A stretch of DNA of 64,000 bases, from positions 512,001 to 576,000 of the forward strand of contig OZ245040.1 of NCBI GenBank assembly GCA_965224195.1, read 5' to 3'. This document shows, in pieces, positions 13,072-62,963 of the stretch (the stretch's first letter is position 1; the number at the start of each line of letters is the position of its first letter). A program made the position numbers and the translations under genes. Origin of the DNA: Nitrosopumilus sp. Lineage in GTDB: Archaea; Thermoproteota; Nitrososphaeria; Nitrososphaerales; Nitrosopumilaceae. Under the pieces are notes generated by a model. The model saw only the letters and a list, made by a program, of their open reading frames with translations. It did no database searches and was not told the DNA's origin.

Positions 13072-13131
13072 TCCATAATAAGATGAATGCTGAGCAATTC
13101 TTTTTAACTATAGTTTAGTCCAGCTTTTAAA

Positions 13132-14104: not shown

Positions 14105-14252
14105 CCTGCAAGCCTATTACAATTTCACTAAAAAACATGGTGCATTAAAGGGCAAGATACCAGCAGAACAAGCCATGATACAAGTCGATGGTAAGAACAA
14201 ATGGATTACATTCATTCAAAATGCTAGTCTTTACAAGGAAAATTCAATTTAG
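14105..14252 (+). mobile_element. C-terminal remnant of a DDE (IS6/integrase-like) transposase
   Basis: LQAYYNFTKKHGALKGKIPAEQAMIQVDGKNKWITFIQNASL matches the YN..R.H..L.G.TPAE end of DDE integrases. Confidence 0.6.
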
Positions 14253-14341
14253 AGAAAATTCATATTTTGTGTCTAGCTGACGATAACCCGACAGAACCTA
14301 CAGTAGCTAGTCTTAAATAATGAATTTAGGGCTAATTTGTC

Positions 14342-14467
14342 GTGGATGAGGAAATCAGACAAATCAGAATGGCCGAAAACAAAGACCAATTCCTAAAAGA
14401 AACTTTAGAAATAATCAACGAAGACTCGGATCTTTATGAGGCCTTTGCTAAAGAAAAATTTGATTGA
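14342..14467 (+). CDS. Small acidic peptide, possible Doc antitoxin
   Basis: 41 aa ending ..LEIINEDSDLYEAFAKEKFD; convergent with and abutting the Doc gene. Confidence 0.35.
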   Translation: MDEEIRQIRMAENKDQFLKETLEIINEDSDLYEAFAKEKFD

Positions 14468-45452: not shown

Positions 45453-46133
45453 TTGAGAATTAGTGAAATTTTTGAATCAGTTCAAGGTGAAGGAACCAAT
45501 GCTGGAAAAGAATCTATTTTCATCCGTACTGCTTTATGTAATTTAAAATGCTCTTGGTGTGATACAAAGTACACTTGGGATTGGGATAATTTTGATTATA
45601 ATTCTGAAGTTCACGACATGACAATAGATGAAATCATACAAAAATTAAAAAACTTTACTGCAAAAAATATTGTAATTACTGGAGGTGAGCCTTTGATTCA
45701 ACAAGATGAATTGATATTATTGTTATCGTCATTACCAAAAAAATTCTTTATAGAGATTGAAACAAATGGAACAATTCTTCCTTTAGATAGACTAATTCCA
45801 TTAATTGATCAGTGGAATGTTTCGCCAAAAACATCAAATTCCAATAATCTTATTGAACAATGCGAAATAGGAAACTGTTATAAATTTTTTAAAAATCATA
45901 CAAAAACCTTTTTTAAATTTGTTGTAGAGTCTGAATCAGATATTTTAGAAATATCAAATATTATAGAAAAATATGAACTGGATAAATCTAAAATTCTTCT
46001 AATGCCTCAGGCTTTGACAAAAAATGATTTAATTTCAAAAGAATCCTTAATTCAAACTTTATGTAAAAAAAATAATTTTAGATATTCATCTAGACTACAC
46101 GTTATGAGATGGGGAAATGTTAGAGGACGTTAA
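45453..46133 (+). CDS. queE: 7-carboxy-7-deazaguanine synthase (radical SAM)
   Basis: ISEIFESVQGEG, FIRTALCNLKCSWCDT, ITGGEP, IETNGT, NVSPK, RLH. Confidence 0.95.
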   Translation: MRISEIFESVQGEGTNAGKESIFIRTALCNLKCSWCDTKYTWDWDNFDYNSEVHDMTIDEIIQKLKNFTAKNIVITGGEPLIQQDELILLLSSLPKKFFIEIETNGTILPLDRLIPLIDQWNVSPKTSNSNNLIEQCEIGNCYKFFKNHTKTFFKFVVESESDILEISNIIEKYELDKSKILLMPQALTKNDLISKESLIQTLCKKNNFRYSSRLHVMRWGNVRGR

Positions 46134-46487
46134 TTATTTTGTAACTGAGCAATACGATGAACTTCCTTCAAAGAATTTTACGCTTGAAAGAGGTATTTTC
46201 CCCTCTAGATTCTCAAAAATCCATGCTGCAATATTTTCGGATGTGGGAAAATCAAACATTTTATCTAAATCATTATGATCTAATTGACCGATAACATTCC
46301 AACAGGTCTTTTTCATTTCAGAAAAATCAAGAAGCATATTTTCTTGATATGTATTTCCTTTTGGAACCACCCCTTCTACTTCAACAACTATTTTCGAAGT
46401 ATGTCCGTGTGGCTGCCCACATTTTGGATGTCCCTTTAAGGTATGTGCAAAATCAATTTCAAATTCTACACCTAGCTTTGTTTTCAT
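46134..46487 (-). CDS. queD: 6-carboxy-5,6,7,8-tetrahydropterin synthase
   Basis: AH.L..HPKCGQPHGH, LDH, PTSENIA. Confidence 0.95.
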   Translation of the reverse strand: MKTKLGVEFEIDFAHTLKGHPKCGQPHGHTSKIVVEVEGVVPKGNTYQENMLLDFSEMKKTCWNVIGQLDHNDLDKMFDFPTSENIAAWIFENLEGKIPLSSVKFFEGSSSYCSVTK

Positions 46488-49806: not shown

Positions 49807-52323
49807 ATGCATCTAATTCATAATTTCATATCTATGCCGGTTGAAAAATACGGTTTAAAGTTAATTCCCTTTAAATCTCAAGGTTCAGAATCTGGAAAAT
49901 ATCCATTTGTTCCCTCTGAATCATTTAATAATTTAATATCTGAAATTCAAGAAATTCGTGAAGATAAAGACGCTGGCTCTATCATCTTTAGAGGCCCCCA
50001 AGGTAGTGGTAAAACTGCTACTAGGAATGGAATTTTAAATAATTTTTTACAACAAACCGATGTTGGAATAATTACCGTTAATCTTTCTTCACTTGAATTA
50101 AGAGATTTGACATGGTCAATAGCAAATAATGCCAAAAAACAGAATTTAATTGATGATAAATTTCTTAAAGAAATAGATTATGTTGAAGGGCAAAATATTG
50201 AAAGGCCCAGGTTATTAGAAATAATCATTTCAATTATAGAAAAAATTTTGTCAGTAAAGGAATTTGGTATTTTAATTATTGATGAATTTGATATTATTTC
50301 TCAACCTACTTTTCATGATACAGATAATCAAACAACTTTTCTTCAAAATATTACAAATTTTTTAAATTTGATCAGTGAATCTAAAATGGTACAAAAAAAA
50401 TCGTTTTGCACAATTCTTGCACAAACTGATAAAAGTTCTGAGGATTTTATAACATATGTCTCTAATAGACATAAACCACTTGCTTCTAGATTAAAACGTA
50501 GTGTTGATATAGAATATAATTTGGATGAAACAAAACAAATCATCTTGAACAGATTAGAATCTGAACAAATAGATGGATTTGTAAAACCTGATGGAAATGA
50601 ATTTTTTCCCTTAGATGAAAAAATAATAGAATTTCTTTTTATTGAAATTAATCAATTGACACTAAAGAAAAAAATGACTGCATTTAGAGATGTGGAACAA
50701 ATTTTACATAATTCAATTGTAAAATCTTTGGAAAAAAATTTACCAAAAGTGGATATTAATATTGTTATGGAGATCTTTAATCAGGAAAAAACAAAACTAT
50801 TTGAAATTAAACGAGAAGAACTTCGAATTAACAAAGAAACAATTATTGAGCTTGATAAATTACTCCTTGACAAGGATCACTCTGCAGCAAATAACTTGTA
50901 TCTTGATGGTATTAAAGATGGAATGACTGTTTGGGAATCACAATTATACAAAACTGTTGACTCTAATGGTGCAAGATCAAGATTAATTCCAGATAATGGG
51001 CACAGTTTATTCATTAATAGTATCAGGTTAGATCTTCAATCTAGTTCAAAACATCACAAGTCAATTTTGTGGTATGATGTTTCTAAATTTGAAAACAAAG
51101 AATTCACTGATAAGGATTTTAAAGAAATTAATTTATTTTTAGATGAAAACAAAGATGAAAGAAATGGATGCCAATTTTCAATTTTAACTATATTTTCAGA
51201 TACCCTATTAACAGATGAAATAAAATTAAAAAATGATCAAATTACTTCTATGGATGAAATCTTTATCTGTAACAATATTGTAAAAAAAGCAATCATTGGA
51301 ATAGCAATTTCTAACTCAGCAACTAAGGATGTATCGAATCCTTCAGATGATCGTGAGCAATTTAAGCCTAATTGGAATACACATCTACATAGTGTATGTA
51401 CTGATAAATTAGGAGAAACTCTTCACGATCTTGATAAAGAATTTTCAGATAAAAATAAAGTTCTTGTTCAAATTCTCTTTACAAAATCTGCTATTGGGGA
51501 AACATTCCAAAAAAAGGTTGATCTAAAAAACTTGGCAAGAGGAATTTCTAATTTGAATATTCAAGAAAACAATGTTAATGAAATCATACTATTAGGATTT
51601 TGTAATGAAGAACTACAACCTACCATTCCACGAAATCTGGTTTCACTTAAAAATTTAATCGAATTAGGAAAAACAAGTGATGAAATTTTAACATTTTTCT
51701 CTAAACCTTTTACATTTGGAGCTGCAAAATTATTAAATATTATTGATGATAATGGGAAATTAGTTAATTTTGAGAATCTAAAAAAGGAAATCGAGGATGA
51801 TTTAATTCAAAAAATGAAAGATGTTTTACCCGAGGATACTACAACTTTATCAGTTAATCAAACAATAATTAAATTACTTGTAGACGCATTTGAAAAAATC
51901 GATGAAATAACTAATTATTTAAAAAAAATAATTGTGTTGAGCTATATTCGTGAACAATCTGAAAAATCTTTGGAAGATTTATCTGTAGATTCAACATTCT
52001 CTGAATCTGGTGCTTCCACCACTGAATCTGGTGCTTCCACCACTGAATCTGGTGCTTCCACCACTGAATCTGGTGCTTCCACCACTGAATCTGGTGCTGC
52101 TGATGTTCGCGATACCGCTGTAAATAATGAAAAATCTGAAGAAATAACTCTCGACATGCTTCTAGATGTATGTAATGATGTTCTAAAGGATGGTAAATTA
52201 ACACTCAATGAATTACGCAAAAGAATTAGTATGAAACCACGTTTTGAAGACGAGACTAAATGGGTTACAAAAATTTATGCTTTAATTCGTAGTAGTAAAA
52301 TATCTCTCAGTAAAGGAAATTAA
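49807..52323 (+). CDS. P-loop AAA-type ATPase (DpdH-like position)
   Basis: Walker A GPQGSGKT, Walker B ILIIDEFD, Arg-finger-like LASRL; start possibly ATG 49834. Confidence 0.85.
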   Translation: MHLIHNFISMPVEKYGLKLIPFKSQGSESGKYPFVPSESFNNLISEIQEIREDKDAGSIIFRGPQGSGKTATRNGILNNFLQQTDVGIITVNLSSLELRDLTWSIANNAKKQNLIDDKFLKEIDYVEGQNIERPRLLEIIISIIEKILSVKEFGILIIDEFDIISQPTFHDTDNQTTFLQNITNFLNLISESKMVQKKSFCTILAQTDKSSEDFITYVSNRHKPLASRLKRSVDIEYNLDETKQIILNRLESEQIDGFVKPDGNEFFPLDEKIIEFLFIEINQLTLKKKMTAFRDVEQILHNSIVKSLEKNLPKVDINIVMEIFNQEKTKLFEIKREELRINKETIIELDKLLLDKDHSAANNLYLDGIKDGMTVWESQLYKTVDSNGARSRLIPDNGHSLFINSIRLDLQSSSKHHKSILWYDVSKFENKEFTDKDFKEINLFLDENKDERNGCQFSILTIFSDTLLTDEIKLKNDQITSMDEIFICNNIVKKAIIGIAISNSATKDVSNPSDDREQFKPNWNTHLHSVCTDKLGETLHDLDKEFSDKNKVLVQILFTKSAIGETFQKKVDLKNLARGISNLNIQENNVNEIILLGFCNEELQPTIPRNLVSLKNLIELGKTSDEILTFFSKPFTFGAAKLLNIIDDNGKLVNFENLKKEIEDDLIQKMKDVLPEDTTTLSVNQTIIKLLVDAFEKIDEITNYLKKIIVLSYIREQSEKSLEDLSVDSTFSESGASTTESGASTTESGASTTESGASTTESGAADVRDTAVNNEKSEEITLDMLLDVCNDVLKDGKLTLNELRKRISMKPRFEDETKWVTKIYALIRSSKISLSKGN
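52001..52098 (+). repeat. Perfect 21-bp in-frame tandem repeat (4.7 copies, ESGASTT)
   Basis: CTGAATCTGGTGCTTCCACCA at 52001, 52022, 52043, 52064 and a partial copy at 52085. Confidence 0.95.
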
Positions 52324-52324
52324 A

Positions 52325-53323
52325 ATGCAACTTAATAAAAAAATTATCAAAGCTCCAGCTGTAGATAATCTTAATATTCTTAAAAAAATTATTAAAAGTC
52401 TAGAGTATACCCCTATCCCATTTAGTTATATTGATGAAAGGAATCTTGAATCGCTAGAAAATAAGAAAAAAATTTCTCACCAAGTCCATGAAAGTATTAA
52501 TGAATGGAAAGATAGTCAAGAGATTTCTCATGCAAAAGGATTTTTACAATCTATTGTTTCATTATTAAGATCATTGAATATTATTTCAAATGTAAAAATT
52601 AAAAAAGAATTTTTAGATACACCACTTGGTTTTTCTGGACCAATGCTTAATACATTTTTAACAAAAAGTATTGATGCAGTTATGTTGACAAAAATTGGAT
52701 ATAGTCTTTTAGATTTATTGGAAAAAAATGATATTCAATCTAGAAATACATATGATAATATATTATTCTGGAGATTTTTACATAGTAACATAACACATAA
52801 CTTTCAACGACTTTTTGAAAATTCTGATACTTATACAAAAGGAATTGAAAAAACACTAGAGAAATTTGAAACAGATACTCGTACAAGAGGTATTTTCTTA
52901 AGTTGGATAAATTATTTTGATTTAAAAGGAATTGATGAGACTCATAGTAATTCAATTATTTTGAGCAAAAAAAAAGTTATTAAAAAAATTATTTCATCCA
53001 CTATACTTGAATTAAACACTTTAAAAATTGACATATATTCAATTGAAATACTTTCAAACCATCTTTCTCAACAACTTGATTTGTCTAATACTATCTGTGA
53101 CTTCTTATCTATTTTTGAGATTATTTTAAAACACACAAACTTATCAGATGAACAAAAGAAATCTATATCTGGAACAACATCCTCAAGAATCAGTTCACAC
53201 TTGCCAAATTTTCCTAAAATAAACATGTTAAAAATTCATAGTAGTATACCTATGGATCAAATTTTAGAAAATACTACAGACTCTGAATTTAATTCAGTAT
53301 TGAATTTTGGTGATAATGAGTGA
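52325..53323 (+). CDS. Hypothetical protein, probably multi-winged-helix
   Basis: SLLRSLNII..LTKIG and FLSWINYFDL segments; coupled to both neighbours. Confidence 0.65.
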   Translation: MQLNKKIIKAPAVDNLNILKKIIKSLEYTPIPFSYIDERNLESLENKKKISHQVHESINEWKDSQEISHAKGFLQSIVSLLRSLNIISNVKIKKEFLDTPLGFSGPMLNTFLTKSIDAVMLTKIGYSLLDLLEKNDIQSRNTYDNILFWRFLHSNITHNFQRLFENSDTYTKGIEKTLEKFETDTRTRGIFLSWINYFDLKGIDETHSNSIILSKKKVIKKIISSTILELNTLKIDIYSIEILSNHLSQQLDLSNTICDFLSIFEIILKHTNLSDEQKKSISGTTSSRISSHLPNFPKINMLKIHSSIPMDQILENTTDSEFNSVLNFGDNE

Positions 53324-56010
53324 ATCCCAAGGATATTGTAAAAGATGAAATTTATCGTATAGAAAATTCATTAATTCAACAAAAAATATTTCTTGATAAC
53401 AACAATCAACCAATGTTTATCACGAATGTGCAGATTGCGAAAGGAACTGGATTATCTGAAACAGAAGTCATAGATGTCATAACAGAATTAGCCCAAAATG
53501 AGAAAAATGAATTTATTATTTTTGATAATACTCTCGGTATTTCGGCAGATGAAAATATTCAGTTTTTTGTTAGAACAAGAATATATCATATAATATGGAC
53601 ATTGTATAGATCTGCCAGTAGAACCAGGAGTAATCCGCCTAAATTTAATATTGGTGATTATCAATATTTACGACATGTTAAACGTCGTCCAAAACAATCT
53701 GAAAATTTAGAAGATGTATTTAATGATGAGGAAATCAAAAAGAATTTTGACTATCCAAAAAATGACTTGTTCAATAAGGTTATTGCCCATATTAAAATAA
53801 ATACTAATTTCAAAAAAATTAGTAACTTTCAAAAAAAATCAACTGTTAAAATATTAAAAAATCTTGAATTAAGAAAAAAGCCAAGAGGTATTGTCTTGGT
53901 TGCTGGCACAGGTGCTGGTAAATCATTTGCATACCAATTTCCACTCTTACTTTGGATACTAAATAAAAAATTTAAAAAATTTGATGAATTCCGTAAAGGA
54001 TACATTAAGGAATCTGATTTACATGTTAATTGTACTGGATTACTGATTTTTCCAAGAAACGCTTTAGCACAAGATCAATTTGAATCCATATCCTATCTAA
54101 TTGATATTATTAATGAAGAAATTTGCAAATTCCCTGATGCAGTAGGAAGAAAATTCCTTACAATTAAAAAACCACTTCCTGACTTTCATAGTAATATTAG
54201 TGGTGATTTGAAAAACAAATATGGAAATAACTCTGAAAAAGGTTATCCTGATTTAATTATCACTCATCCCAAATCATTAGAACGTAGACTTATCAATCCA
54301 GATTGTAGTTTTGTGTATAAACAAGGAATAGATTGTGTATTATATGATGAAGTACACTTATGGGATGGAATAGAAGGGGCAGAAATTGCTTCATTAAATG
54401 CACGATTACAAAATTTATTCCAAGAAAAGTCAAATCCGCCGTTATTTGTTGGTATGTCTGCAACAATTGATCAACCTGAATGGCATTGCCAAAAATTATT
54501 TTCTTTGTTGACTGAAAAGAAACCTGAATCCATAATACAAGGAGACGATGATGATACAGTGCCTTTTTCAATTGAACATCATTTAATTCTTAAACCTAGA
54601 AGTGGTCGACCCCCAATAGGTGTTGCAATAGATACAACATCATGCTTGATACATAATCGTAGAAATGGATTATCATTATCACATGATGATGATAATTTCC
54701 CCTCACACATAGATCGAGAAAATAAAGACAAAAGTCTCACTTTTATAGATTCTTTAAATCAAACTGCAAAATTTGCTAACAAATTAAATAATTTTGAATA
54801 TTTTTGGGATGGTCATGCTCAAATAGCACGAACTTCAGGTTCCCAAAGACCATACAGATCATATCTTTATCACTATAGACCCGAGCAACGTCCACCTAAA
54901 GGAGTTCCAAACAATAAATGGACCGCCAATCATGATTGTAATGACTGTGTAAATCGAACTAGTCCAGAAATTTTTACATGTCCAAGTTATGCTCGCGGTG
55001 AATGTTGGTATTATTCTTCAGATGATGCAAATCAATTTGCAAATACCCCTTATGGAAATTGGAAACAATTAGTTCGAGGAGACAGACTAACAGTTCCAAG
55101 AGACAATATTCGTTCAATACGAGTTTCAAGTTTAGAAAACAAAAAAATTAAAAATAAATATGATTATTTTTTGTTTAAAGATAACATATGGATACCTGAT
55201 GGTAAAGTTCCTGCTTCTGTAGATATGGTTTCTGATATTGATAATATCGTGTCAACTTCCACTCTAGAAGTAGGGGTTGACTTCAAAAAGATCAAAGAAA
55301 TTATACAAGTTGGAGACATTCGATCTCCTTCATCATATAAACAAAAAGCTGGTAGAGGAGCTCGTGAAGGAAATAGTGAGGATGGGTTATTTGTAATGAC
55401 TGTTATTAATGACTCTTCCTTAGCATATTATCATTTTAAACACTTTAGTAGATTAGTGAAATCTAGTCTAGATCCACTAAAACTTGAAACAACAAATCCC
55501 AATATCATAAGATCTAATTGCTTCTTTTCAATTTTTGATTTTATGGCATTAAATAAAATTAATTTATTTAAAATTGTACGTTTAGAGGCTACAGAAATAG
55601 ATTTGGAATATGAAAAAGCAATAAAATTACTTGATGATTCTAAATTGGAAAAATATGTTGCAAGATTTCTTGCTAAATTTAACAAATCAGAAAGTAGTAT
55701 TATCCAAAAAACCATTAAAGATGTACGAGATTTTCTAGAAATACTATCAACAAAAAGAGAAGTAATTATTAATGATGTGAAAATACAACATACTCTACAC
55801 GAATGGTTGATACAATCTGTTAATAGTCTAAATACTCTACAAGAAGTTAAAAAACAATTAGGTATTGATACACTTCAAAAACAAGAAGATGCAATAGGCG
55901 ATATCACAAAGTATATGGATGAGTTAGAAACATCCTATCAAAAACAATTTCCTGATGATGATTTAATTACAAAAAAATTACATGAATTGAGGAGAGAGAT
56001 ATTTGAGTAA
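53320..56010 (+). CDS. SF2 DEAH helicase (DpdJ-N / DrmA-like)
   Basis: Q motif NFQ, AGTGAGKS, FPRNALAQDQ, DEVH, GMSATI, STSTLEVGVD, QKAGRGAR. Confidence 0.9.
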   Translation: MNPKDIVKDEIYRIENSLIQQKIFLDNNNQPMFITNVQIAKGTGLSETEVIDVITELAQNEKNEFIIFDNTLGISADENIQFFVRTRIYHIIWTLYRSASRTRSNPPKFNIGDYQYLRHVKRRPKQSENLEDVFNDEEIKKNFDYPKNDLFNKVIAHIKINTNFKKISNFQKKSTVKILKNLELRKKPRGIVLVAGTGAGKSFAYQFPLLLWILNKKFKKFDEFRKGYIKESDLHVNCTGLLIFPRNALAQDQFESISYLIDIINEEICKFPDAVGRKFLTIKKPLPDFHSNISGDLKNKYGNNSEKGYPDLIITHPKSLERRLINPDCSFVYKQGIDCVLYDEVHLWDGIEGAEIASLNARLQNLFQEKSNPPLFVGMSATIDQPEWHCQKLFSLLTEKKPESIIQGDDDDTVPFSIEHHLILKPRSGRPPIGVAIDTTSCLIHNRRNGLSLSHDDDNFPSHIDRENKDKSLTFIDSLNQTAKFANKLNNFEYFWDGHAQIARTSGSQRPYRSYLYHYRPEQRPPKGVPNNKWTANHDCNDCVNRTSPEIFTCPSYARGECWYYSSDDANQFANTPYGNWKQLVRGDRLTVPRDNIRSIRVSSLENKKIKNKYDYFLFKDNIWIPDGKVPASVDMVSDIDNIVSTSTLEVGVDFKKIKEIIQVGDIRSPSSYKQKAGRGAREGNSEDGLFVMTVINDSSLAYYHFKHFSRLVKSSLDPLKLETTNPNIIRSNCFFSIFDFMALNKINLFKIVRLEATEIDLEYEKAIKLLDDSKLEKYVARFLAKFNKSESSIIQKTIKDVRDFLEILSTKREVIINDVKIQHTLHEWLIQSVNSLNTLQEVKKQLGIDTLQKQEDAIGDITKYMDELETSYQKQFPDDDLITKKLHELRREIFE

Positions 56011-58237
56011 AATAGATGAAATAGAAAAAATTCTAGAAAATAGGTTAAAAGAAGTAGAATTTAAAAAAAGCAACTTGATTGTTAATCCATTCACTAATCT
56101 TAAAAACTCCTTAAAAGAATTTGAAGAAAGTAAAAAAATTTCTAATAAAAGTGGGATTGATATTTTCAGATTGGAATTATATTTATCTGAATTATATGAA
56201 GACTTGAACAATAGAAAGGGAAATCAAAAATCCGATGAAACATCGTTTAATGTCTTCACAAAATTACCACTAAAACCTTATGCCAAATCATCCATCGGTT
56301 CTACGGTTACGTTATCTAGAGGGACAAATTATTCTGAGGAGGTATTGCCATCAAAAACTATTTTTACACAACTTTTACCGGGTCAAGTAACACATAGGTG
56401 GGATTTCCATTCACAATGGAGAGTTCCATGTGGAAAATATTCTGAAGATTTTATTAGTCATCTTAAAGGAATTCATAAAATATCTTCAACTCCATTTATC
56501 CAACATGAAGGTAAAAATGTCCACACATTAGAAAAAATAAATGTTATGACGTTACAAGGGGTTACCAATAACTCATATGTAGATGAGAATGGTGAAGAAC
56601 AGAAAAGACAAGGAGGAATTCCTGTTTGTCCAGAATGTTTGTCAATAAATATTTCTGGGGGCAGAGTGGCAGAACAGTGTATTCATGTAAGAGATGGTAA
56701 CAGTAATCCTATAGGACGTTCCTCATTATATGCATCTCCAATTTTAGAAAATATTGAAATTAGTGGTGAGAGAGAAATATCAAAACCAAATCATTTCTCT
56801 TTCCCGTTAAATGAAATATTTGAAAAAATAGAGTTTTTAGAAAATTGTCAAATCATTACTGTTGCTACAGGTTTTAGTAGAGAAATAGGAGGTGTCTCGA
56901 TACAAGTTCAATATGATCCATATATCGGATATAAGACAGATACAAACGGATTATTATTTGTAGTAAAAGAGATTCCAGGTGATTTTGTTAAACAAGTATT
57001 AAATGATGATTTTCTTGTGAGGGATGTCATAATAGATATTCTACAAGATAAAATTCTTCATATTTTAAATAATTCGAATAAGAGTTCTTTTGAATTAGAA
57101 GTATGGCTTTCTGGACTAATCAAAGCGTTAAGACTTGATTCAATTTCGACCACCTTTGATTATTTGAACACACTTAATCAATTACATTCTGCTTCATTTG
57201 ATGATGATTTTTTAAGTTGTGTTCAAACTGAATTAAGTTATTATGAATACGAACAATTTGGCATAGATCCAACAAGAATTGCAGTAATGTCTAACGAAAT
57301 AAAAAATATCAGTATTTCAGAAGATGATTTAAAATTAAAAATTAAAAGATTGCTTAAAAATTCATTAACTTACTTAATACATCAAACAGGATTGGTTACA
57401 TCAGGTTCAACTGATCAAGATATTGGATTTATATATCCAAAAGAAAATACAAACGAAATTTTACTTTTTGATGATATGTCTGGTGGAAATGGTGCTTCAA
57501 AATTAATTAATGATTATTTGGTTGGTGTAAGCTCTTCATATTCTCCAAAGCATGGAGCACGACCCAAATATTTTCAAGAAACATTTTTTGAATTATTACA
57601 GCCATGTCCACAAGGTACTGCTGATAGAAGTTTTTTCCAAGATTTGGTTAAAATCTTTACAAATTTTTCTAACAATAATTTAATTAGTAAAAAATTTGAA
57701 GAAATTCAAGAACAACAAAATGCTTCACAAAATGAATTTGCGCAAATAAAAACTTCTGGTATTCAAAATATGTTTCCTCATTCAATTGGTAAAAGAGGAT
57801 TAATACAAAATGGAATAACAAACACAACAGAAAGTAAGAAAATTCAAGAAATTGCAAACATCTGTATCCACGGTTGTTTTGAATGTGGTCTTTTAAAGGG
57901 GAATTATTCTGGAATAAAAGGTCCTAAACTTGAGAAATTTTATGTTAGTAAATATTTACTTGATAAATACTTCAAATTTGTTACACAAAAAATTCGAATT
58001 GATATTGATACCAATACATCTGAAATAGAAAAAATTTTCAAAGAACACAAAATGATAATTATTTCACAAAAAATTGGAAATGCTAACAACATCTATCAAG
58101 TGATGTCAAAAATGAATTCATTAATTGGTGAAGAATTCGATAAAAAATTGGTGAAATTTTCAGGACTGTGGTTTGATTGTCCAATTTCAAATTCTCCAGA
58201 GGTTGAATTATCTATTTTATTGAGCGTGATTAAATGA
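56003..58237 (+). CDS. DUF1998/MrfA-like Zn-binding helicase partner (DpdJ-C / DrmB-like)
   Basis: EILLFDDMSGGNGAS followed by PC..ICIHGCFEC; internal CPEC; GAGGAG upstream of the TTG start. Confidence 0.75.
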   Translation: MSKIDEIEKILENRLKEVEFKKSNLIVNPFTNLKNSLKEFEESKKISNKSGIDIFRLELYLSELYEDLNNRKGNQKSDETSFNVFTKLPLKPYAKSSIGSTVTLSRGTNYSEEVLPSKTIFTQLLPGQVTHRWDFHSQWRVPCGKYSEDFISHLKGIHKISSTPFIQHEGKNVHTLEKINVMTLQGVTNNSYVDENGEEQKRQGGIPVCPECLSINISGGRVAEQCIHVRDGNSNPIGRSSLYASPILENIEISGEREISKPNHFSFPLNEIFEKIEFLENCQIITVATGFSREIGGVSIQVQYDPYIGYKTDTNGLLFVVKEIPGDFVKQVLNDDFLVRDVIIDILQDKILHILNNSNKSSFELEVWLSGLIKALRLDSISTTFDYLNTLNQLHSASFDDDFLSCVQTELSYYEYEQFGIDPTRIAVMSNEIKNISISEDDLKLKIKRLLKNSLTYLIHQTGLVTSGSTDQDIGFIYPKENTNEILLFDDMSGGNGASKLINDYLVGVSSSYSPKHGARPKYFQETFFELLQPCPQGTADRSFFQDLVKIFTNFSNNNLISKKFEEIQEQQNASQNEFAQIKTSGIQNMFPHSIGKRGLIQNGITNTTESKKIQEIANICIHGCFECGLLKGNYSGIKGPKLEKFYVSKYLLDKYFKFVTQKIRIDIDTNTSEIEKIFKEHKMIIISQKIGNANNIYQVMSKMNSLIGEEFDKKLVKFSGLWFDCPISNSPEVELSILLSVIK

Positions 58238-58788
58238 CACATGTTGATGAACTAAATTATGCAATGGTGGATTTTGATATATTAGCTTCAGAATTAATAA
58301 AATCTATTTTTAATAAAAATGATGATAATGAAGTTATAATAATTTCACCGTGGATGGTAGATTATGCATTACCAATGACCTGGCCCTCTTTTAGTAGTAA
58401 TTTTATTAATATTACAGATATGCAAACAACAAGTGATATTCTAAGATTACTATTGCAGAATGGTGTTTTAGTAACGATCATGTCACATTCAACTGCACAA
58501 TTAGAAAAAGATGGATGGGGTAATGTTGCTATTAGAAATGCAGTAGATTTTTCTAATAAAATAAAAGATGATGGTGGAAAAATAATTCATAATCAAATAA
58601 ATCACGGTAAGCTAACATATACTAGTGAACATGCATTAGCTGGTTCTGGTAATTATACAAATAAGGGTAGGAATCCAATATTGCAAAATAACATAGGTGA
58701 ATTAATTGTTAAAAGTAAAGATGAAAAAAGTCATGGATTAAAACATAGATGGGCTTTAGATAGACTCAAAGAAGGAAAATCCATATAA
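58234..58788 (+). CDS. PLD-family nuclease (DpdK / DrmC-like)
   Basis: IIISPWMVD, NHGKLTY..ALAGSGNYTNKG..N..E; ATGA-coupled. Confidence 0.85.
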   Translation: MTHVDELNYAMVDFDILASELIKSIFNKNDDNEVIIISPWMVDYALPMTWPSFSSNFINITDMQTTSDILRLLLQNGVLVTIMSHSTAQLEKDGWGNVAIRNAVDFSNKIKDDGGKIIHNQINHGKLTYTSEHALAGSGNYTNKGRNPILQNNIGELIVKSKDEKSHGLKHRWALDRLKEGKSI

Positions 58789-60051
58789 TTATTTCCCAAA
58801 ATAATACAAACCTAATTTTCTATCAATAGAGTTACACCATGTAGCCAATCCCAATAATAACAAAACATCTTCTTTGTCTTTCATTGAATATTTTTTTGAT
58901 TTTTTCAAATGAATTACAATATCCTCAAAGTTTTGAGGAGTATTTGACAATAGTTTTAACATGTACTTGTATTCTGGAATTTTTTCTTTTAATTTTTTAT
59001 TCAACTTTGTTTTAGCTGATCTTTTCTCCAATGATTTTAAGAACTCTTTACCTTCATTACTAAGATAGATAACACCATCACGTTTAGTTGTAAATTTTAA
59101 CAATTCTCCTAATTTTGTATAACTGCCATTTTCTGTTTCATATCTGGAGTGTAGTAGATTTTTTATGGCCATTCCATCTTTAACTGATTCTAGGAATTTG
59201 GGGAATTTTGTAACTGATATTTGAGGAGGTGTGAAATTACCTGTTACAGGACTTGCTTTTTTGTATTCACTGTTTTTTTTAGCGCCTTCTTCTGCTGCAC
59301 TAAATCCCTTATTTGAAATAATGAATGTAAAAGTACCTCGTCCTCTGTATGATAAATCCACTCTCAGAGGTAAATCATCACTTAAACCTAGTTTGACTTC
59401 TCCGCACTGAGTAACCATTTCAGTGACTGTTTTCAAATAATCCAATATGGTCCAAGTTTTCACATCTTTTTTTGGTATTTTATTTTTAAAAGACTCAAAC
59501 ACTTGACCTGAAAGATCTATTGTTTTGTGATAAGAAAATCCACCTTCTTCAGAACCTACAACAAATTTCCCATCCTCGATTCCAAAGAATATCTCTCTAG
59601 ACACTGATGATGCTTCATTAATTATCTCCAAGAATTCTTTGGATGGAATTGTGATTTCAGCATCATAATCTAAATTATTTGGTTCGGGTAGGTTGAATTC
59701 TTCATCCTCCAACCATTCTAATTCATAACGTGTTTTTTCATTATTTATAAAATTTAATGCAATGTTTTTTTTCCGAATATCAAGATTCAGTTTTTTTTCT
59801 TTTTTAATTTTTGTAATTACTTGTTTGAGCTTACCAATTTCAGCCTCTCTTGAAAATTTTTCAGAATCCCAGTTAAATCCATTAAAAAAGGTAGGTGATA
59901 ATTTAATATCCACATAACAAAAATCGTGAGGATCTATACTTCTAATCCTTACTCCGTTTTTACTAATATCAAATCTGGCTACATCTGTAAATCTTGTAAT
60001 GCCACGAAAAATGGCTTTGAATAATGCTAAATCCTCTATTCTTAATTCCAT
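58789..60051 (-). CDS. Divergent PCNA sliding clamp fused to a C-terminal putative winged-helix domain
   Basis: aa 1-247: FKAIF..VRIRSIDPHDFCYVDIKL, LPEPNNLDYDAEITIPSKEFLEII, LDYLK, LGLSDDLPLRVDL..GTFTFII; about 150 further aa with YLSNEGKEF wing. Confidence 0.85.
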   Translation of the reverse strand: MELRIEDLALFKAIFRGITRFTDVARFDISKNGVRIRSIDPHDFCYVDIKLSPTFFNGFNWDSEKFSREAEIGKLKQVITKIKKEKKLNLDIRKKNIALNFINNEKTRYELEWLEDEEFNLPEPNNLDYDAEITIPSKEFLEIINEASSVSREIFFGIEDGKFVVGSEEGGFSYHKTIDLSGQVFESFKNKIPKKDVKTWTILDYLKTVTEMVTQCGEVKLGLSDDLPLRVDLSYRGRGTFTFIISNKGFSAAEEGAKKNSEYKKASPVTGNFTPPQISVTKFPKFLESVKDGMAIKNLLHSRYETENGSYTKLGELLKFTTKRDGVIYLSNEGKEFLKSLEKRSAKTKLNKKLKEKIPEYKYMLKLLSNTPQNFEDIVIHLKKSKKYSMKDKEDVLLLLGLATWCNSIDRKLGLYYFGK

Positions 60052-61101
60052 TTATTTTCTACCAAATAATATGTTTGAAATACTATTGTATTTTTTCTTT
60101 AATTTAGCGTATTTCCATAAATAATCTAGAGAAGATGTTTTGTAAATTTCATTTAGATATTCCTCATATGCTTCTTGTCCTTTTTTGATTAGTTTTTTTG
60201 CTATTTTTATTTCATTTTTCATTACATGATCATTATGAATTGCTCTTGCTTTCCAGTCATCCCACAATGCATCTTGATTCATCCTACAAATTGGACAATC
60301 ACATTCTTGGAGTAATTTCATATCTTTTCTTTTTAATGAAACACCACCTCCAAATTTGGCGGTGTTATTCCCAACATATCTCTCAGCCGTACCTGGCAAT
60401 ACAATTTGACCAAATGCTGCTTTTCTTCTATATCCTGATGAATCTGTACTTTCTATTCCTAAATAATATCCTAAATGCAATGAAATTGGCGATGAACCTA
60501 AACCCATAATGTGAACATTGTAATCAGTATTTTTTTTTACACTTTCTACAGTATATGATAACATATCAATCAAATTTTTATTTGGTTGTCTATCTCCAAA
60601 AAATCCCGTATAGTTTGTAAATTCAGGATTAACAATACTTCCGACTGCCAAATAATCTGAATCTCCATATTTTTGAATCCATTTCAAATTTTTCATTAAT
60701 GATTTTTTATTCCAAGCATGAATTGAAGGGACTAGTTTTCCATCCAAATTTGTAGATGATTGCCAATATCGAATATTTTTTGCAGTGTCCTTCCATCTTT
60801 TTTGCATTGTTACCGCAGACATTCCATTTTTGAATGGATAGTCAAATGGAATTGTTTTATCAGGTTCTAATGTCTCTTGAATATCGATAATTTTTTCTAA
60901 ATCTAATTCCATATCTTGCATGTTTGCAGTATATGCGCCATTATCCAAAAATAATTCGCCCACCCTGTATGGTAGTTTTGGTTCATCTTTTCTGTAATAA
61001 TTAATAGCAGAATCCATGACGAAGTCTTTTCTGCGATCTGTTTTTACTGGGGCCTGTGGTTGCTCACCCATCCATAATAAGATCTCCTCCGTTCTGGACA
61101 T
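60052..61101 (-). CDS. TGT-family guanine transglycosylase (DpdA-like, no PUA domain)
   Basis: FLDNGAY, IPFDYP, VHIMGLG, STDSSGY, Zn motif CDCPIC..AIHN; 349 aa, catalytic barrel only. Confidence 0.88.
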   Translation of the reverse strand: MSRTEEILLWMGEQPQAPVKTDRRKDFVMDSAINYYRKDEPKLPYRVGELFLDNGAYTANMQDMELDLEKIIDIQETLEPDKTIPFDYPFKNGMSAVTMQKRWKDTAKNIRYWQSSTNLDGKLVPSIHAWNKKSLMKNLKWIQKYGDSDYLAVGSIVNPEFTNYTGFFGDRQPNKNLIDMLSYTVESVKKNTDYNVHIMGLGSSPISLHLGYYLGIESTDSSGYRRKAAFGQIVLPGTAERYVGNNTAKFGGGVSLKRKDMKLLQECDCPICRMNQDALWDDWKARAIHNDHVMKNEIKIAKKLIKKGQEAYEEYLNEIYKTSSLDYLWKYAKLKKKYNSISNILFGRK

Positions 61102-61129
61102 ACCAAAAAGGTATGAGTATCAGTATTTT

Positions 61130-62126
61130 TACTTTGTCGAACAAATAACAATCTGATCAACTTTATTTCATAACAATAGCTTTGGATCTCACATTCTGAC
61201 CATTCTCATGGTTAACTGGAATCAATACAATGAGAAACTAGTCAGAAGAGGCGAGATCATAATGTCATTTGATGCTATTGATAACTGGCATAAAGAATTA
61301 GAGGTCATGAATCACAACAAAAGAGGTAGAAAGTTTGACTATCCTGATTCATTCATGAAATTATTGGGTTATGCCAGAGTATATTTTGGATTACCATTCA
61401 GACAAACAGAAGGAATGATACGTGCATATTGTAATAGAATTCCAGCAGTTCCTGATTTCACATCAATCCACAAGAGAATAAACAAGCTTGACATCAAAAT
61501 TGATGATTCCATTGGAGATAATAATGAAATCATTTTAGCAATTGACAGCACAGGAATCAAGGTTGCAAACAGGGGCGAATGGATGAGACAGAAATGGCAC
61601 ATGAGGAGAGGGTTTCTAAAAATCCATGTTGGTGCCGATGCCAGAACCAAGAAAATAGTTTCACTCAAAATAACAGATGATTCATCCCATGATGCTGCAC
61701 ATCTGCCAGAACTGGTACAGCAGGCATCACAGAAAGGAAAGGAAATGTAATCAAGGTTCTAGCTGATGGCGCATATGATTCAGAAAATAATTTCTCATAT
61801 CTATATCACAATACAAATGCACTGCCTGCAATCAAAGTTAGAAAGACATCATCCATCAAAACAAAATGTTATCCGAGAAAGAAATCAGTCTTGGCTCAAA
61901 TGTATAATTTGGATTTGTGGAAGCGCAGCGTCAGCTATGGGGACAGGTGGATTGCAGAGTGTGTGTTTTCAACATTCAAAAGGATGCTTGGTGAGTATGT
62001 CATGGCTCACAAAAGAAAATACATGATAAAGGAATTGGAATTAAAAGTCGAGCTGTACAATCTGCTTGCAGGTGCTTGAGGGAATGAAATTAGAAACTAG
62101 TTAGAAATGATTTGTTCGACAGAGTA
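61130..62126 (+). mobile_element. IS5-family (ISH1-like) insertion sequence
   Basis: 17-bp TIRs TACT(T/C)TGTCGAACAAAT; 8-bp target duplication AGTATTTT at 61122-61129 and 62127-62134. Confidence 0.93.
61208..62079 (+). pseudogene. IS5 transposase, frameshifted by a short duplication near 61735
   Basis: IDSTGIK..KIH, then in another frame VLADGAYDS..RWIAECVFSTFKR. Confidence 0.85.
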
Positions 62127-62215
62127 AGTATTTTAACTTGAGGAAAATTCTCCATCATGTAATCATGTAAAATTTATTTTAAATTTTGATAAAATGTCAT
62201 TATCAAACAATGTAC

Positions 62216-62963
62216 TTAGGCCTCTTTTTGAGATTTTTGATTATCATATAGTTTATAGCTATAATCTAGAATGAATTTTCTGGGCTCTCTAAATGGGCCT
62301 CTAAATTTTACATCAATCACCTCTTTTTCTTCTTTTGTACTAGCACTCATTTCTAACACTCCATTTGCAAACCAAAGAAAATACTCTTCATCGTTTTTTT
62401 CCATGGTTCCTCTTCTCAAAAGATATAATGATTGAATTTTTCTTCTTTGTTCAAACCCCATATTATGGCGTAAGTATTGTGTTGCAATTTGAAAATCAGT
62501 AAATGCTAAAAAGTCAGATATTGCATCGTATGTTACTCGGATGCCATTACAACCTTTCTTTTCCAATTCACTCAATGCATTTTCATATTTTTTGTTAATT
62601 TCATGTGGATCGTATGAATTAGCATAGTGTAAATTGGATTCTTTCAATTTTTTGTTCCATGATTCTTTTTCAGAATCTAGAGAATAACAATCCACAAAAA
62701 TGATGTTATCAAAATTTATATTATTTTCTAAAATCTTTGTATTATTAGGATCCTCATTCTTCATTCGCTTCAGCTCTTCTTCCAACATGTCTTTGATTTC
62801 CCCAGCTGGTCGAGTAAATGTAAAATAAATTGCTCCTGATCCGTAGGATAATCCAGATAAAATAAATCTTAAAAGAATTTTCCAAGGCCGTGTTGTTTCA
62901 TCTGCTAAAATGATTATTGGAAAATAAATTTCCTTATCTTTCTTTGATAATTCTTGATTGATT
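62216..62963 (-). pseudogene. RecA/KaiC-fold ATPase-like domain protein, 5' part cut off by an IS
   Basis: Frame open up to the IS end: ..GAIYFTFTRP..IIFVDCYS..IRVTYDAISDF..FANGVLEM; no Walker A visible. Confidence 0.6.

What the first reader, a model, noticed from the sequence alone, without database searches (positions are those of the whole stretch)
58789..60051. PCNA paralog fused to a predicted double winged-helix domain
Seen: a full ~247-aa clamp fold, a low-complexity linker (SAAEEGAKKNSEYKKASP) and about 150 aa with wHTH-like patterns. Known: replicative archaeal PCNAs are stand-alone ~250-aa proteins. Inference: a repurposed clamp giving processivity or scanning and perhaps sequence specificity to the TGT, or forming mixed rings with host PCNA so that modification follows replication.
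Basis: partly seen in the sequence, partly recalled or inferred. Interest (0 to 1): 0.9.

Follow-up and report, generated by a model that had tools for sequence, protein, structure and literature searches.

The report
Clamp-like partner of archaeal DNA transglycosylase
This archaeal gene encodes a diverged copy of the DNA sliding clamp joined to a basic DNA-binding tail, and it always sits right after a guanine-swapping enzyme in a defence island, so it is probably that enzyme's DNA-handling partner rather than a replication protein.

Summary
The ORF at 58789-60051(-) encodes 420 aa: a confident PCNA fold (aa 1-247; Foldseek TM 0.89 to Sulfolobus PCNA2), a disordered linker (aa 249-278) and a basic helical C-terminal domain (net charge +13). 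The first half of that domain is a winged helix. The second half is HTH-like and has no significant structural match.

The genome also has a canonical PCNA. The fused clamps form their own long-branched clade (100/100 support) apart from 31 other PCNAs of the phylum.

In 34 of 35 related loci a short TGT-family gene lies directly upstream on the same strand; the 35th has no room for one. The pair stays together when the downstream effector genes are inverted or replaced (DpdJ/DpdK-like, NurA-HerA, others). preQ0-pathway genes lie beside the pair in two lineages: QueD and QueE here, QueC in a Bathyarchaeia-type locus.

A TGT + clamp complex prediction gave weak support only (0.55; best control 0.00).

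My reading is that this protein is the DNA-engaging accessory subunit of a Dpd-like 7-deazaguanine DNA writer, an analogue of bacterial DpdB that is not related to it. Ring formation, tail-to-pocket docking and the modified base itself are all untested. Six paper searches found no description of it. The scan has not noted it on other DNA.

The parts
58789..60051 (-). Whole ORF, 420 aa: PCNA-fold domain + linker + basic wH/HTH domain ('PCNA-wH')
   Evidence: ORF table. 51 full-length homologous clusters. AF2 model.
59311..60051 (-). aa 1-247, PCNA-fold clamp domain. Family-invariant motif RIRSIDPHDFCYVD (aa 35-48) and LPEP (aa 121-124) in the interdomain connector
   Evidence: Pfam PCNA_N and PCNA_C over their cut-offs. 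Foldseek TMt 0.89 to Sulfolobus PCNA2. Invariant columns.
59218..59310 (-). aa 248-278, disordered, variable linker
   Evidence: pLDDT below 50 for aa 249-278. Length-variable and gapped in alignment A1.
58792..59217 (-). aa 279-420, basic C-terminal domain (net charge +13): one winged helix followed by an HTH-like helical bundle. Ends ...WCxxIDRKxxLYYFGK
   Evidence: Model with pLDDT 86. Only weak wH-type fold hits. AAA_assoc_C sub-threshold in 24 of 25 members. Charge. Profile search finds about 40 fused representatives plus stand-alone relatives.
60052..61101 (-). Short TGT-family transglycosylase (349 aa), the constant upstream partner. Catalytic Asp53 and Asp220 and the Zn site C267/C269/C272/H289 are invariant
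   Evidence: Pfam TGT 55.3 bits. Alignment A3. Directly upstream in 34 of 35 loci.
60055..60099 (-). Conserved C-terminal tail of the TGT (KKKYNSISNILFGRK; family consensus KLRKKYxRISxVLFG). Candidate clamp-docking peptide (inferred)
   Evidence: Tail conserved in 27 TGTs, with I341 and S342 invariant. The tail is replaced in the one TGT that lacks a clamp gene.
49807..58788 (+). Convergent five-gene putative restriction operon: AAA+ ATPase (838 aa), 332-aa protein, DpdJ-like DEAD helicase (896 aa), 744-aa protein, DpdK-like PLD (184 aa)
   Evidence: Pfam, NCBIfam and PADLOC hits. Homologues follow the pair in 17 of 35 loci.
45453..46487 (.). Island-borne QueE-like (45453-46133, +) and QueD-like (46134-46487, -) preQ0-pathway genes
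   Evidence: NCBIfam QueE 118 bits and QueD 76 bits, both below the equivalog cut-offs. They are the best-scoring copies in the genome. At DNA level they are found only in the island-bearing relative G304, out of 5 relatives.
61129..62127 (.). Insertion sequence of about 1 kb (DDE transposase), inserted about 28 nt upstream of the TGT start codon
   Evidence: 18-nt terminal inverted repeats. At least 9 further near-full-length copies at 89-98% identity in the genome. DDE_Tnp_1_5.

Best explanation
PCNA-wH is the dedicated DNA-engaging accessory subunit of a DNA-targeting guanine transglycosylase (the 349-aa TGT encoded just upstream). Together the two proteins form the 'writer' cassette of an archaeal, Dpd-like 7-deazaguanine restriction-modification island.

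Shown:
- It is a diverged PCNA-fold protein with a basic wH/HTH domain.
- It is not the housekeeping clamp.
- It is genetically inseparable from the TGT.
- preQ0-pathway genes and DpdJ/DpdK-like or other nuclease/helicase effectors accompany the pair.

Inferred:
- The clamp domain encircles or rides on dsDNA, and the wH domain adds DNA affinity or site choice.
- The TGT is tethered to the clamp, most likely through its invariant C-terminal tail docking on the remodelled but invariant surface that corresponds to the PIP-peptide pocket of PCNA.
- The enzyme can therefore find and flip target guanines in chromosomal DNA.

Functionally it would replace bacterial DpdB, a ParB-like ATPase whose modelled closed dimer encircles a DNA-sized tunnel and which DpdA needs in order to insert preQ0.
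For: 1) Fold: Pfam PCNA_N and PCNA_C over their cut-offs. AF2 plus Foldseek give TMt 0.89, E 4e-21 to Sulfolobus PCNA2.

2) Not housekeeping: all 4 genomes found with the fusion also hold a PCNA over the TIGR00590 cut-off. In the tree, 26 fusion clamps split from 31 other PCNAs at 100/100 support, with branch length 1.65 + 1.29.

3) Synteny:
- A TGT is directly upstream on the same strand in 34 of 35 loci. L011 has only 20 nt upstream.
- The distance from the TGT stop codon to the start of the clamp match is 0-29 nt in the 27 loci measured and 0 nt in the window.
- The effector genes are convergent in the window, L003, L005 and L017, co-directional in 13 loci, and replaced by NurA+HerA or other genes in the L024/L027/L018 clade. 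The pair stays intact throughout.

4) Chemistry:
- The TGT keeps both catalytic Asp residues and the Zn site.
- At 349 aa it is much shorter than the housekeeping arcTGT frame of 512 aa.
- QueE- and QueD-like genes lie in this island.
- QueC (207-211 bits, over the 150.3 cut-off) lies divergently upstream of the TGT, with one 158-aa ORF between them, in L004 and L027.

5) Tether:
- The TGT tail KLRKKYxRISxVLFG is conserved.
- Family-invariant clamp residues I39, F44, C45, Y46, P228, F241 and F243 and the LPEP connector align to conserved but different residues of housekeeping PCNA. That these positions line the PIP pocket is my recollection of human and yeast PCNA, not a result of any call.
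- In the one genome with this TGT but no clamp (G246), the tail is replaced right after 'YAK'.
- Co-fold: weak support, score 0.55 (runs 0.56/0.55/0.53), best of 3 controls 0.00, partner pLDDT at least 80, runs agree in at least 57% of contacts. In the tool's calibration the mark was reached by 58 of 80 solved complexes and 2 of 110 mismatched pairs, but at 0.60 or under by only 7 of those 80 solved complexes and by both mismatches that passed.

6) Precedent: passages of PMC10164549 say that DpdB's ATPase is required for DpdA activity and that its closed model encircles a positively charged tunnel about 20 A wide.
Against: - No biochemical or modification data exist for this system.
- The co-fold pass is in the weak band. 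The tool calls such a pass more often wrong than right unless the guess was likely beforehand, and it gave no interface.
- Ring formation was not tested.
- No clamp loader is evident in the cassette. The AAA+ gene that often follows is absent from the NurA/HerA-type loci.
- The four helices that would line the ring carry only about +2 net charge per monomer.
- The TGT tail lacks the canonical Gln and aromatic pair of a PIP box, and its Phe is Ser or Leu in some members (L021, L036, L015).
- The TGT matches no DpdA model in NCBIfam or PADLOC.
- In the PDB it matches only arcTGT, at E 1.3e-4, so a DNA rather than an RNA target is inferred from context.
- QueD and QueE score below their equivalog cut-offs.
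- The IS inserted 28 nt upstream of the TGT may have silenced the cassette in this strain.
Confidence: 0.6

Rival explanations
1. A loader-free adaptor that does not form a ring. The PCNA fold acts as a monomer or dimer, as in the herpesvirus processivity factors UL42 and UL44 (recalled, not from a call). It binds DNA through the basic wH domain and simply targets the TGT to particular sequences. There is no topological encirclement.
For: - No RFC-like loader is constant in the cassette.
- The C-terminal domain carries +13 charge while the clamp domain is -4.
- The inner helices are only weakly basic.
- Synteny with the TGT fits this reading as well as it fits the ring model.
Against: - The full two-domain PCNA fold is retained at TM 0.89.
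- The strands that correspond to the trimer-interface strands keep conserved residues (WxTxYxxxWL and SF in the A1 consensus). That these strands form the interface is recalled.
- The oligomeric state was not tested.
Confidence: 0.22
2. A replication-coupled writer. PCNA-wH enters mixed rings with the host PCNA, or uses its own C-terminal ...DRKxxLYYFGK end as a PIP-like peptide on host PCNA, so that the TGT modifies newly made DNA at the fork.
For: - A host PCNA is present in all 4 genomes with the fusion.
- The C-terminal end is conserved: L415 and F418 are nearly invariant.
- Maintenance modification after replication is a logical need of any R-M system (inference).
Against: - The fused clamps are separated from all 31 sampled PCNAs by a branch of about 2.9 changes per site, which makes retention of a matching ring interface unlikely.
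- The family is shared by Nitrososphaeria- and Bathyarchaeia-type records whose own PCNAs differ.
- The LYYF end is modelled as part of a helix of the folded domain (H411-418), not as a free tail.
Confidence: 0.08
3. It belongs to the sensing or restriction side. The wH domain reads modified versus unmodified DNA, and the clamp recruits the AAA+/helicase/nuclease effectors rather than the TGT.
For: - In 13 co-directional loci the AAA+ gene follows immediately.
- wH domains serve as modification readers in type IV enzymes (title and abstract of PMC11037411 seen in the listing).
Against: - The clamp gene stays fused to the TGT gene's 3' end when the effector operon is inverted (window, L003, L005, L017) and when the effectors are replaced by NurA/HerA or others.
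- hhalign finds no homology between the C-terminal domain and the 332-aa effector-side protein (probability 4.75%).
Confidence: 0.08
4. An ordinary extra replicative or repair PCNA (for example of proviral origin) that lies next to a tRNA-modifying TGT by chance.
For: Extra PCNA copies do occur. G304 and G034 each hold a further PCNA-like frame.
Against: - 34 of 35 loci are adjacent.
- No match in viral contigs.
- Patchy distribution, 3 of 401 genomes of the class.
- The score is below every housekeeping cut-off.
- A housekeeping arcTGT already exists in the genome.
Confidence: 0.02

Closest known systems
Archaeal and eukaryotic PCNA sliding clamp (Pfam PF00705 + PF02747; e.g. Sulfolobus PCNA2, PDB 2ix2_B)
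   Same: The same two-domain fold (TMt 0.89). It keeps universal PCNA residues (D40, P41, D48, F56, Y205, P228) and an interdomain connector.
   Different: - About 20% identity to solved PCNAs.
- Scores below every NCBIfam clamp cut-off.
- Forms a separate clade.
- Carries an extra linker and a 140-aa basic wH/HTH domain.
- Encoded in a defence island, always after a TGT.
- The positions H42, D43, F44, C45, Y46, F55, E153 and F241 are invariant in this family but differ from housekeeping PCNA.
DpdB of the bacterial Dpd system (ParB-like ATPase partner of DpdA; PMC10164549)
   Same: Works alike (inferred): an obligatory, co-encoded partner of a DNA-guanine transglycosylase. For DpdB, a closed dimer encircling a DNA-sized positive tunnel was modelled (passages).
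   Different: No homology: this is a PCNA fold, not a ParB fold. No NTPase motif or domain was detected in PCNA-wH, so the ATP dependence seen for DpdAB has no counterpart inside this protein.
DpdA and the Dpd 7-deazaguanine R-M island (Salmonella Montevideo type)
   Same: A short TGT-superfamily enzyme without tRNA-binding extensions, preQ0-pathway genes nearby, and a DpdJ-like helicase and DpdK-like PLD in the effector operon.
   Different: - The TGT matches no DpdA model.
- No DpdB or DpdC homologue was seen among the island ORFs scanned.
- The helicase scores 102-107 bits against a cut-off of 800, and the function is split over several genes.
- The hosts are archaeal.
AAA_assoc_C (PF09821) and archaeal stand-alone proteins of about 250 aa with the same N-terminal domain
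   Same: The C-terminal domain gives sub-threshold PF09821 hits in 24 of 25 members. It is homologous (E 9e-14 to 5e-4) to the N-terminal 150 aa of stand-alone proteins of 224-265 aa.
   Different: Those stand-alone proteins are core genes of two other families of the phylum (23 of 23 and 12 of 12 genomes). Their neighbours are unrelated and variable in the two loci scanned. They have no clamp and no TGT.

Membership tests
PCNA / sliding clamp superfamily | Two tandem PCNA domains detected by the curated Pfam models | tested here: met
   PF00705 at 28.4 bits (cut-off 20.3) and PF02747 at 25.2 bits (cut-off 23).
PCNA / sliding clamp superfamily | PCNA three-dimensional fold | tested here: met
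   AF2 model, pLDDT about 85-92 over aa 1-245. Foldseek 2ix2_B at E 4e-21, TMt 0.89.
Housekeeping replicative PCNA (NCBIfam equivalogs, TIGR00590) | Score over the curated equivalog cut-off | tested here: not met
   Best score is 99.2 bits against a cut-off of 284. TIGR00590 gives 58-60 bits against 99.1. A separate gene in the same genome passes at 135.6 bits.
Housekeeping replicative PCNA | Groups with the host lineage's PCNA in a tree | tested here: not met
   26 fusion clamps split from 31 PCNAs of the phylum at 100/100 support.
PCNA / sliding clamp superfamily | Closed homotrimeric (or heterotrimeric) ring around DNA | not tested
No oligomer prediction was run.
PCNA / sliding clamp superfamily | Partner binding through a PIP-type peptide in the pocket under the interdomain connector | tested here: inconclusive
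   The aligned pocket positions are invariant within the family but differ from housekeeping PCNA. The TGT tail is conserved but is not a canonical PIP box. The co-fold gave weak support and no interface.
Winged helix-turn-helix DNA-binding domains | Three-helix bundle plus beta-hairpin wing, with a significant match to known wH structures | tested here: inconclusive
   The model shows H-H-H plus a hairpin for aa 281-331, and a second helical unit without a wing. There are 0 fold matches at E<=0.001 in the PDB or BFVD; the weak top hits are wH proteins. The PDB profile search found nothing better than E 0.16.
AAA_assoc_C (PF09821) | Score over the Pfam gathering cut-off (27.6 bits) | tested here: not met
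   The window protein scores 17.8-20 bits. 24 of 25 members match at E<=1, with a best E of 1.8e-5.
Dpd 7-deazaguanine R-M system | DpdA-family transglycosylase | tested here: not met
   The TGT superfamily is matched (PF01702, 55.3 bits), but no DpdA model matches in NCBIfam at E<=0.1 or in PADLOC at E<=0.01.
Dpd 7-deazaguanine R-M system | DpdB (ParB-like ATPase) partner | tested here: not met
   No ParB or DpdB hit for any of the island ORFs scanned. PCNA-wH occupies that position.
Dpd 7-deazaguanine R-M system | DpdJ / DpdK effector proteins | tested here: inconclusive
   DpdJ scores 102-107 bits against a cut-off of 800. DpdK scores 15-19 bits against a cut-off of 100. These are partial, domain-level likenesses.
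Dpd 7-deazaguanine R-M system | Linked preQ0 supply | tested here: met
   QueE- and QueD-like genes lie in the island. QueC, over its cut-off, lies divergently upstream of the TGT (one ORF between) in L004 and L027. The genome also has QueC elsewhere.
Dpd 7-deazaguanine R-M system | 7-deazaguanine nucleosides present in genomic DNA | not testable with these tools
   This needs LC-MS/MS of hydrolysed DNA.

The most novel reading that the evidence does not exclude
A PCNA-fold ring has been taken out of replication and made the dedicated DNA-tracking subunit of an epigenetic writer. The clamp (self-loading, or loaded by the neighbouring AAA+ ATPase) slides on the chromosome. Its double wH/HTH domain reads the DNA. 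It holds a guanine transglycosylase by that enzyme's C-terminal peptide, so that 7-deazaguanine is written processively. As far as my six paper searches reach, no sliding clamp that belongs to a restriction-modification system is described. It would also be a convergent answer to the need that bacteria meet with the ParB-like DpdB.
Probability: 0.3. Interest if true: 0.85.

Novelty: new variant of a known kind. Interest (0 to 1): 0.7.

Why it matters
DNA-targeting TGT enzymes (DpdA) need a helper to work on double-stranded DNA, and how the bacterial helper DpdB acts is still open (PMC10164549, passages read). This archaeal family puts a clamp fold whose mechanics are well understood in the helper's place, which has three consequences.

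- The hypothesis 'the helper is a DNA-encircling tether' becomes directly testable.
- It points to an unrecognised 7-deazaguanine R-M system in Nitrososphaeria, Bathyarchaeia and, by source labels, other archaeal lineages.
- It is a clean case of a replication protein recruited into host defence.

It also gives a name and a context to a conserved protein family that sources label 'hypothetical protein' or simply 'proliferating cell nuclear antigen', a label that would mislead replication-gene inventories.

Tried and rejected
I used the search for related loci and the genome search instead.
- Viral origin: the viral-contig scan with A1 found no relative.
- TGT-clamp fusion proteins (Rosetta stone): the 'longer' search found none at E<=1e-5. 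The tool itself calls this weak evidence.
Rejected.
- Structural identification of the C-terminal domain:
  - Foldseek against the PDB and BFVD gave 0 matches at E<=0.001.
  - The PDB profile search gave nothing better than E 0.16.
  - The Atlas gave only leads at 0.89-0.92 (DUF7226, AAA_assoc_C, halobacterial double winged helix). DUF7226 was not among the 25 Pfam families listed for A2.
- Context of the stand-alone relatives of the C-terminal domain: the neighbours differ between the two loci scanned (thiolase/ChsH2-like genes in one, an XPB-type helicase and a TrmB-like regulator in the other). This gave no functional lead.
- AAA838 as a clamp loader: the only support is an RFC small-subunit hit at E 0.013 over the P-loop. 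Not taken as evidence.
- Expression: no RNA holder listed.
- Co-variation between the TGT tail and the clamp pocket: about 27 pairs are too few. The clamp invariants do not change where the tail Phe is Ser or Leu, so this says nothing either way.
- Complex prediction: the verdict was weak support. It is cited with its control and calibration counts in the For line. No interface was released, so tail-pocket docking remains an inference.
- Paper searches, none of which gave a paper linking a clamp to a DNA transglycosylase:
  - DpdA + PCNA: 1 unrelated paper.
  - DpdA + 7-deazaguanine + archaea: 25 papers. I read passages of PMC6884629.
  - transglycosylase + PCNA + deazaguanine: 2 papers. I read passages of one.
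  - sliding clamp + deazaguanine: 19 papers, listing only.
  - Five-term search: 33 papers, listing only.
  - PCNA-like + restriction-modification: 5 papers. I read passages of PMC11529989.
  - Supplements were closed. Supplementary Data 1 of PMC6884629, which lists DpdA-encoding viruses, could not be seen and might list related TGTs.

Rows left out:
- A1 used 37 of the 51 clusters (the near-identical P0001-P0004, P0006, P0008-P0013, P0019, P0021, P0026 and P0027 were dropped).
- A2 used the window plus 24 of 26 full-length loci (L009 and L019 dropped as near-copies).
- A3 used the window plus 26 of 27 TGTs (L037 dropped).
- The tree used 26 fusion rows (L019 is identical to L018) and 31 of 35 PCNA loci. 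L045, L058, L067 and L068 gave no phmmer hit to the window's clamp domain at E<=1e-3 and were dropped.
- A5 used 15 stand-alone hits. The short fragments and P0105, P0106 and P0110 were left out.
Full report
THE OBSERVATION

The ORF table gives a 420-aa frame at 58789..60051 on the minus strand. It starts with ATG directly after the stop codon of a 349-aa frame at 60052..61101, and it ends back to back with the convergent 184-aa frame at 58234..58788. The window is AT-rich (26-35% GC around the locus).

Pfam finds PCNA_N (aa 1-107) and PCNA_C (aa 126-245), both above their gathering scores. The NCBIfam sliding-clamp models match end to end but far below their cut-offs: the best is 99 bits against 284. 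Sequence search of the PDB returns only PCNAs, covering aa 1-248 and nothing beyond.

An AF2 model built on 37 family members has mean pLDDT 81.5. It shows the complete two-domain clamp fold for aa 1-245, a segment of pLDDT below 50 for aa 249-278, and a helical domain with one beta hairpin for aa 279-420. Foldseek places the model on Sulfolobus PCNA2 (2ix2_B, E 4e-21, TM 0.89 normalised by the target) and on hundreds of other PCNAs.

THE C-TERMINAL DOMAIN

Modelled alone on 25 sequences, the domain is confident (pLDDT 86, pTM 0.82).
- Residues 10-60 of the domain form three helices and a hairpin, which is a winged helix.
- The rest is two connecting helices, a second three-helix unit and a terminal helix, with no second wing predicted.

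No structural match reaches E 0.001 in the PDB or in BFVD. The weak top hits are almost all winged-helix DNA binders (Sso10a at E 0.08, the FokI recognition domain, PadR, MarR, QsrR). Pfam AAA_assoc_C matches 24 of 25 members below threshold. The domain's net charge is +13, against -4 for the clamp domain.

'Double winged helix' is thus a fair but unproven label. 'Basic wH plus HTH-like domain' is what the model shows.

A profile search of 1.84 billion representatives found 64 proteins.
- About 40 have the same fused architecture (roughly 400-467 aa, with the domain at the C-terminus).
- Some are fragments.
- About 15 are stand-alone proteins of 224-265 aa that carry the domain at the N-terminus.

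The stand-alone proteins are core genes of two other families of the phylum (23 of 23 and 12 of 12 genomes; 35 of 401 genomes in all). Their neighbours were unrelated and variable in the two loci scanned. The domain is therefore an older archaeal module that was joined to a clamp in this family.

NOT THE HOUSEKEEPING CLAMP

The genome (2.07 Mb, 99.85% complete) has a canonical PCNA at C1:232108-232839 that passes TIGR00590 at 135.6 bits. The fused copy scores 60 bits. The three other genomes found with the fusion each also hold a PCNA over the cut-off.

In a maximum-likelihood tree, 26 fusion clamp domains and 31 PCNAs sampled across the phylum separate at 100/100 support, with 1.65 + 1.29 changes per site between them. 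This is an old, fast-evolving family and not a recent duplicate of the host gene.

The family is rare and patchy. The C-terminal profile matched 3 of 401 genomes of the class, and 1 of 83 other genomes of the same genus. No viral contig encodes it. Named records are Nitrosopumilaceae, Nitrosopumilus sp., Nitrososphaeria and Bathyarchaeia MAGs.

THE CONSTANT PARTNER

I fetched 35 related loci and ran tblastn on them with the window's neighbouring proteins.
- A homologue of the 349-aa TGT lies directly upstream on the same strand in 34 of the 35 loci.
- The exception, L011, begins 20 nt before the clamp gene.
- In the 27 loci with a complete TGT, the distance from the TGT stop codon to the start of the clamp match is 0-29 nt.
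- The TGT is far better conserved (51-87% identity) than the clamp (28-79%).

The downstream genes vary.
- Homologues of the window's AAA+/helicase effector genes are found in 17 of 35 loci.
- They are convergent in the window, L003, L005 and L017, and co-directional in 13 loci.
- In the L024/L027/L026 group the pair is followed by a 300-aa protein, a 1,200-aa protein and, in L024 and L027, frames of about 400 and 560 aa that in L024 match NurA and HerA.
- In L018 it is followed by other genes with a weak BrxC/D-like hit.

The clamp gene therefore travels with the TGT and not with any particular effector set. This is the main reason to place it on the modification side.

The reverse test used the TGT profile on the same 401 genomes and found 4 carriers. 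Three of them have the clamp. In the fourth (G246), the TGT's C-terminus departs from the family consensus right after 'YAK'. No clamp gene follows, and broken methyltransferase-like frames lie next to it. This looks like a rearranged remnant. It is a single case.

WHAT THE ENZYME PROBABLY WRITES

- The TGT matches Pfam TGT at 55 bits and keeps two invariant Asp residues and a CxCxxC...H zinc site across 27 sequences.
- At 349 aa it lacks the long C-terminal extension of the housekeeping arcTGT, which is present elsewhere in the genome as a 512-aa frame scoring 260 bits.
- It matches no DpdA model in NCBIfam or PADLOC. In the PDB it matches only arcTGT, at E 1.3e-4. It is therefore a separate subfamily.

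Links to deazaguanine come from context.
- The island holds QueE-like (118 bits) and QueD-like (76 bits) genes at 45453-46487.
- These are the best-scoring copies in the genome.
- At DNA level they are shared only with the one island-bearing relative among the five searched, where they are contiguous with the effector genes.
- In the Bathyarchaeia-type loci L004 and L027, a QueC over its equivalog cut-off (207-211 bits) lies divergently upstream of the TGT, with one 158-aa ORF between them.

The effector operon has a DpdJ-like helicase (102-107 bits) and a weak DpdK-like PLD.

The system works like Dpd, but it fails the family tests for DpdA and DpdB.

HOW THE CLAMP MAY WORK

In Salmonella, DpdA inserts preQ0 into DNA only together with DpdB. 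DpdB is a ParB-like ATPase whose modelled closed dimer surrounds a positive tunnel about 20 A wide (passages of PMC10164549). PCNA-wH occupies DpdB's place in the archaeal cassette and offers the same geometry by an unrelated fold.

Two conserved features suggest the tether.
1) The TGT ends in an invariant-rich tail, KLRKKYxRISxVLFG.
2) The most conserved residues of the clamp domain form a family-specific set: I39, D40, P41, H42, D43, F44, C45, Y46, D48, F55, F56, the LPEP of the connector, P228, F241 and F243. They align with conserved but different residues of housekeeping PCNA. From my memory of human and yeast PCNA, not from any call, several of these positions line the PIP-peptide pocket.

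A co-fold of the two proteins with their alignments scored 0.55 (runs 0.56/0.55/0.53), against 0.00 for the best of three controls. Partner pLDDT was at least 80 and the runs agreed in at least 57% of contacts. The tool rates this as weak support: the mark was reached by 58 of 80 solved complexes and 2 of 110 mismatched pairs, but at 0.60 or under by only 7 of those solved complexes and by both mismatches that passed. It released no interface. Given the strong prior from synteny I count it as mild support for binding and as no evidence on the site.

Ring formation, loading and any sliding remain untested. No loader is constant in the cassette, and the inner helices are only weakly basic. A ring-less, wH-anchored adaptor is therefore a serious rival.

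STATE OF THIS COPY

An IS of about 1 kb, with 18-nt terminal inverted repeats and at least 9 further near-full-length copies at 89-98% identity in the genome, sits about 28 nt upstream of the TGT start codon. It separates the TGT from a 190-aa gene that lies close to the TGT in L017 and about 2.7 kb away on the opposite strand in L005. All frames of the cassette and of the effector operon are intact. Whether they are still transcribed is unknown.

NOVELTY

Six full-text searches found no paper that links a PCNA or sliding clamp to DpdA, to TGT-type DNA modification or to an R-M system. Sources label family members 'hypothetical protein' or 'proliferating cell nuclear antigen'. The earlier notes of this scan concern this same genome only.

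I rate it a new variant of a known kind, namely TGT-based DNA modification with a DNA-engaging helper. The helper is of a fold that none of those searches shows in this role.

VERDICT

- Observation: confirmed.
- Interpretation: partly supported.
- Best explanation: accessory subunit of a Dpd-like DNA transglycosylase writer, confidence 0.6. Confidence is about 0.85 for 'functional partner of the TGT' and about 0.4 for the specific clamp-and-tail mechanism.
- Interest: 0.7.

Noticed in passing
window 61129-62127: An IS of about 1 kb (DDE_Tnp_1_5 transposase, apparently split into 180-aa and shorter frames) with 18-nt inverted repeats, inserted about 28 nt upstream of the TGT start codon. At least 9 further near-full-length copies at 89-98% identity are scattered in the genome. 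A second, different IS (DDE_Tnp_4, 307 aa) lies at 63022-63945.
   Followed up: partly
window 45453-46487: QueE-like and QueD-like genes lie at the edge of the island, next to LeuRS. They are the best-scoring copies in the genome. At DNA level they are shared only with the island-bearing relative G304, not with G008, G100, G032 or G076. A second QueE-like frame lies near QueC at C1:117283-119585.
   Followed up: partly
window 62216-62788 (-): A 190-aa ORF with no Pfam, NCBIfam or PADLOC family. It is conserved near the TGT in L005 (51% identity) and L017 (62%).
   Followed up: no
window 46565-47329 (+) and 47492-49783 (+): A 254-aa ORF with no family hit lies between QueD and the effector genes. 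A 763-aa ORF with only a weak SWIM hit heads the effector side; it is conserved in L003, L005 and L017.
   Followed up: no
L078-L092 (G502, G409, G642 and others): Stand-alone proteins of about 250 aa whose N-terminal 150 aa are homologous to the clamp's C-terminal domain. They are present in every sampled genome of two families of the phylum (23 of 23 and 12 of 12). They have no Pfam family, and their neighbours differ between the two loci scanned. This is an uncharacterised core archaeal DNA-binding-like protein.
   Followed up: partly
L024 3312-10696; L027 4946-12303: An alternative effector module follows the TGT-clamp pair: a 300-aa protein and a 1,197-aa protein with no family, then NurA (47.6 bits) and HerA (103 bits).
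   Followed up: partly
L093 (G246:C30) 10387-14377: A TGT of this subfamily without the conserved tail and without a clamp gene. It overlaps a convergent 237-aa ORF by 6 nt and lies next to fragmented NPPY-type methyltransferase-like frames. It is probably a decayed island.
   Followed up: partly
G304:C1:1737052-1737795; G034:C17:30506-31246: Further PCNA-like frames (262 aa at 109.7 bits; 285 aa at 56.5 bits) exist besides the housekeeping and the fused copies in two island-bearing genomes. Their origin was not examined.
   Followed up: no
window 51911-52220 region of the 838-aa ORF: The AAA+ protein carries a tandem repeat, SGASTTE x4-5, near its C-terminus (visible in the translation).
   Followed up: no
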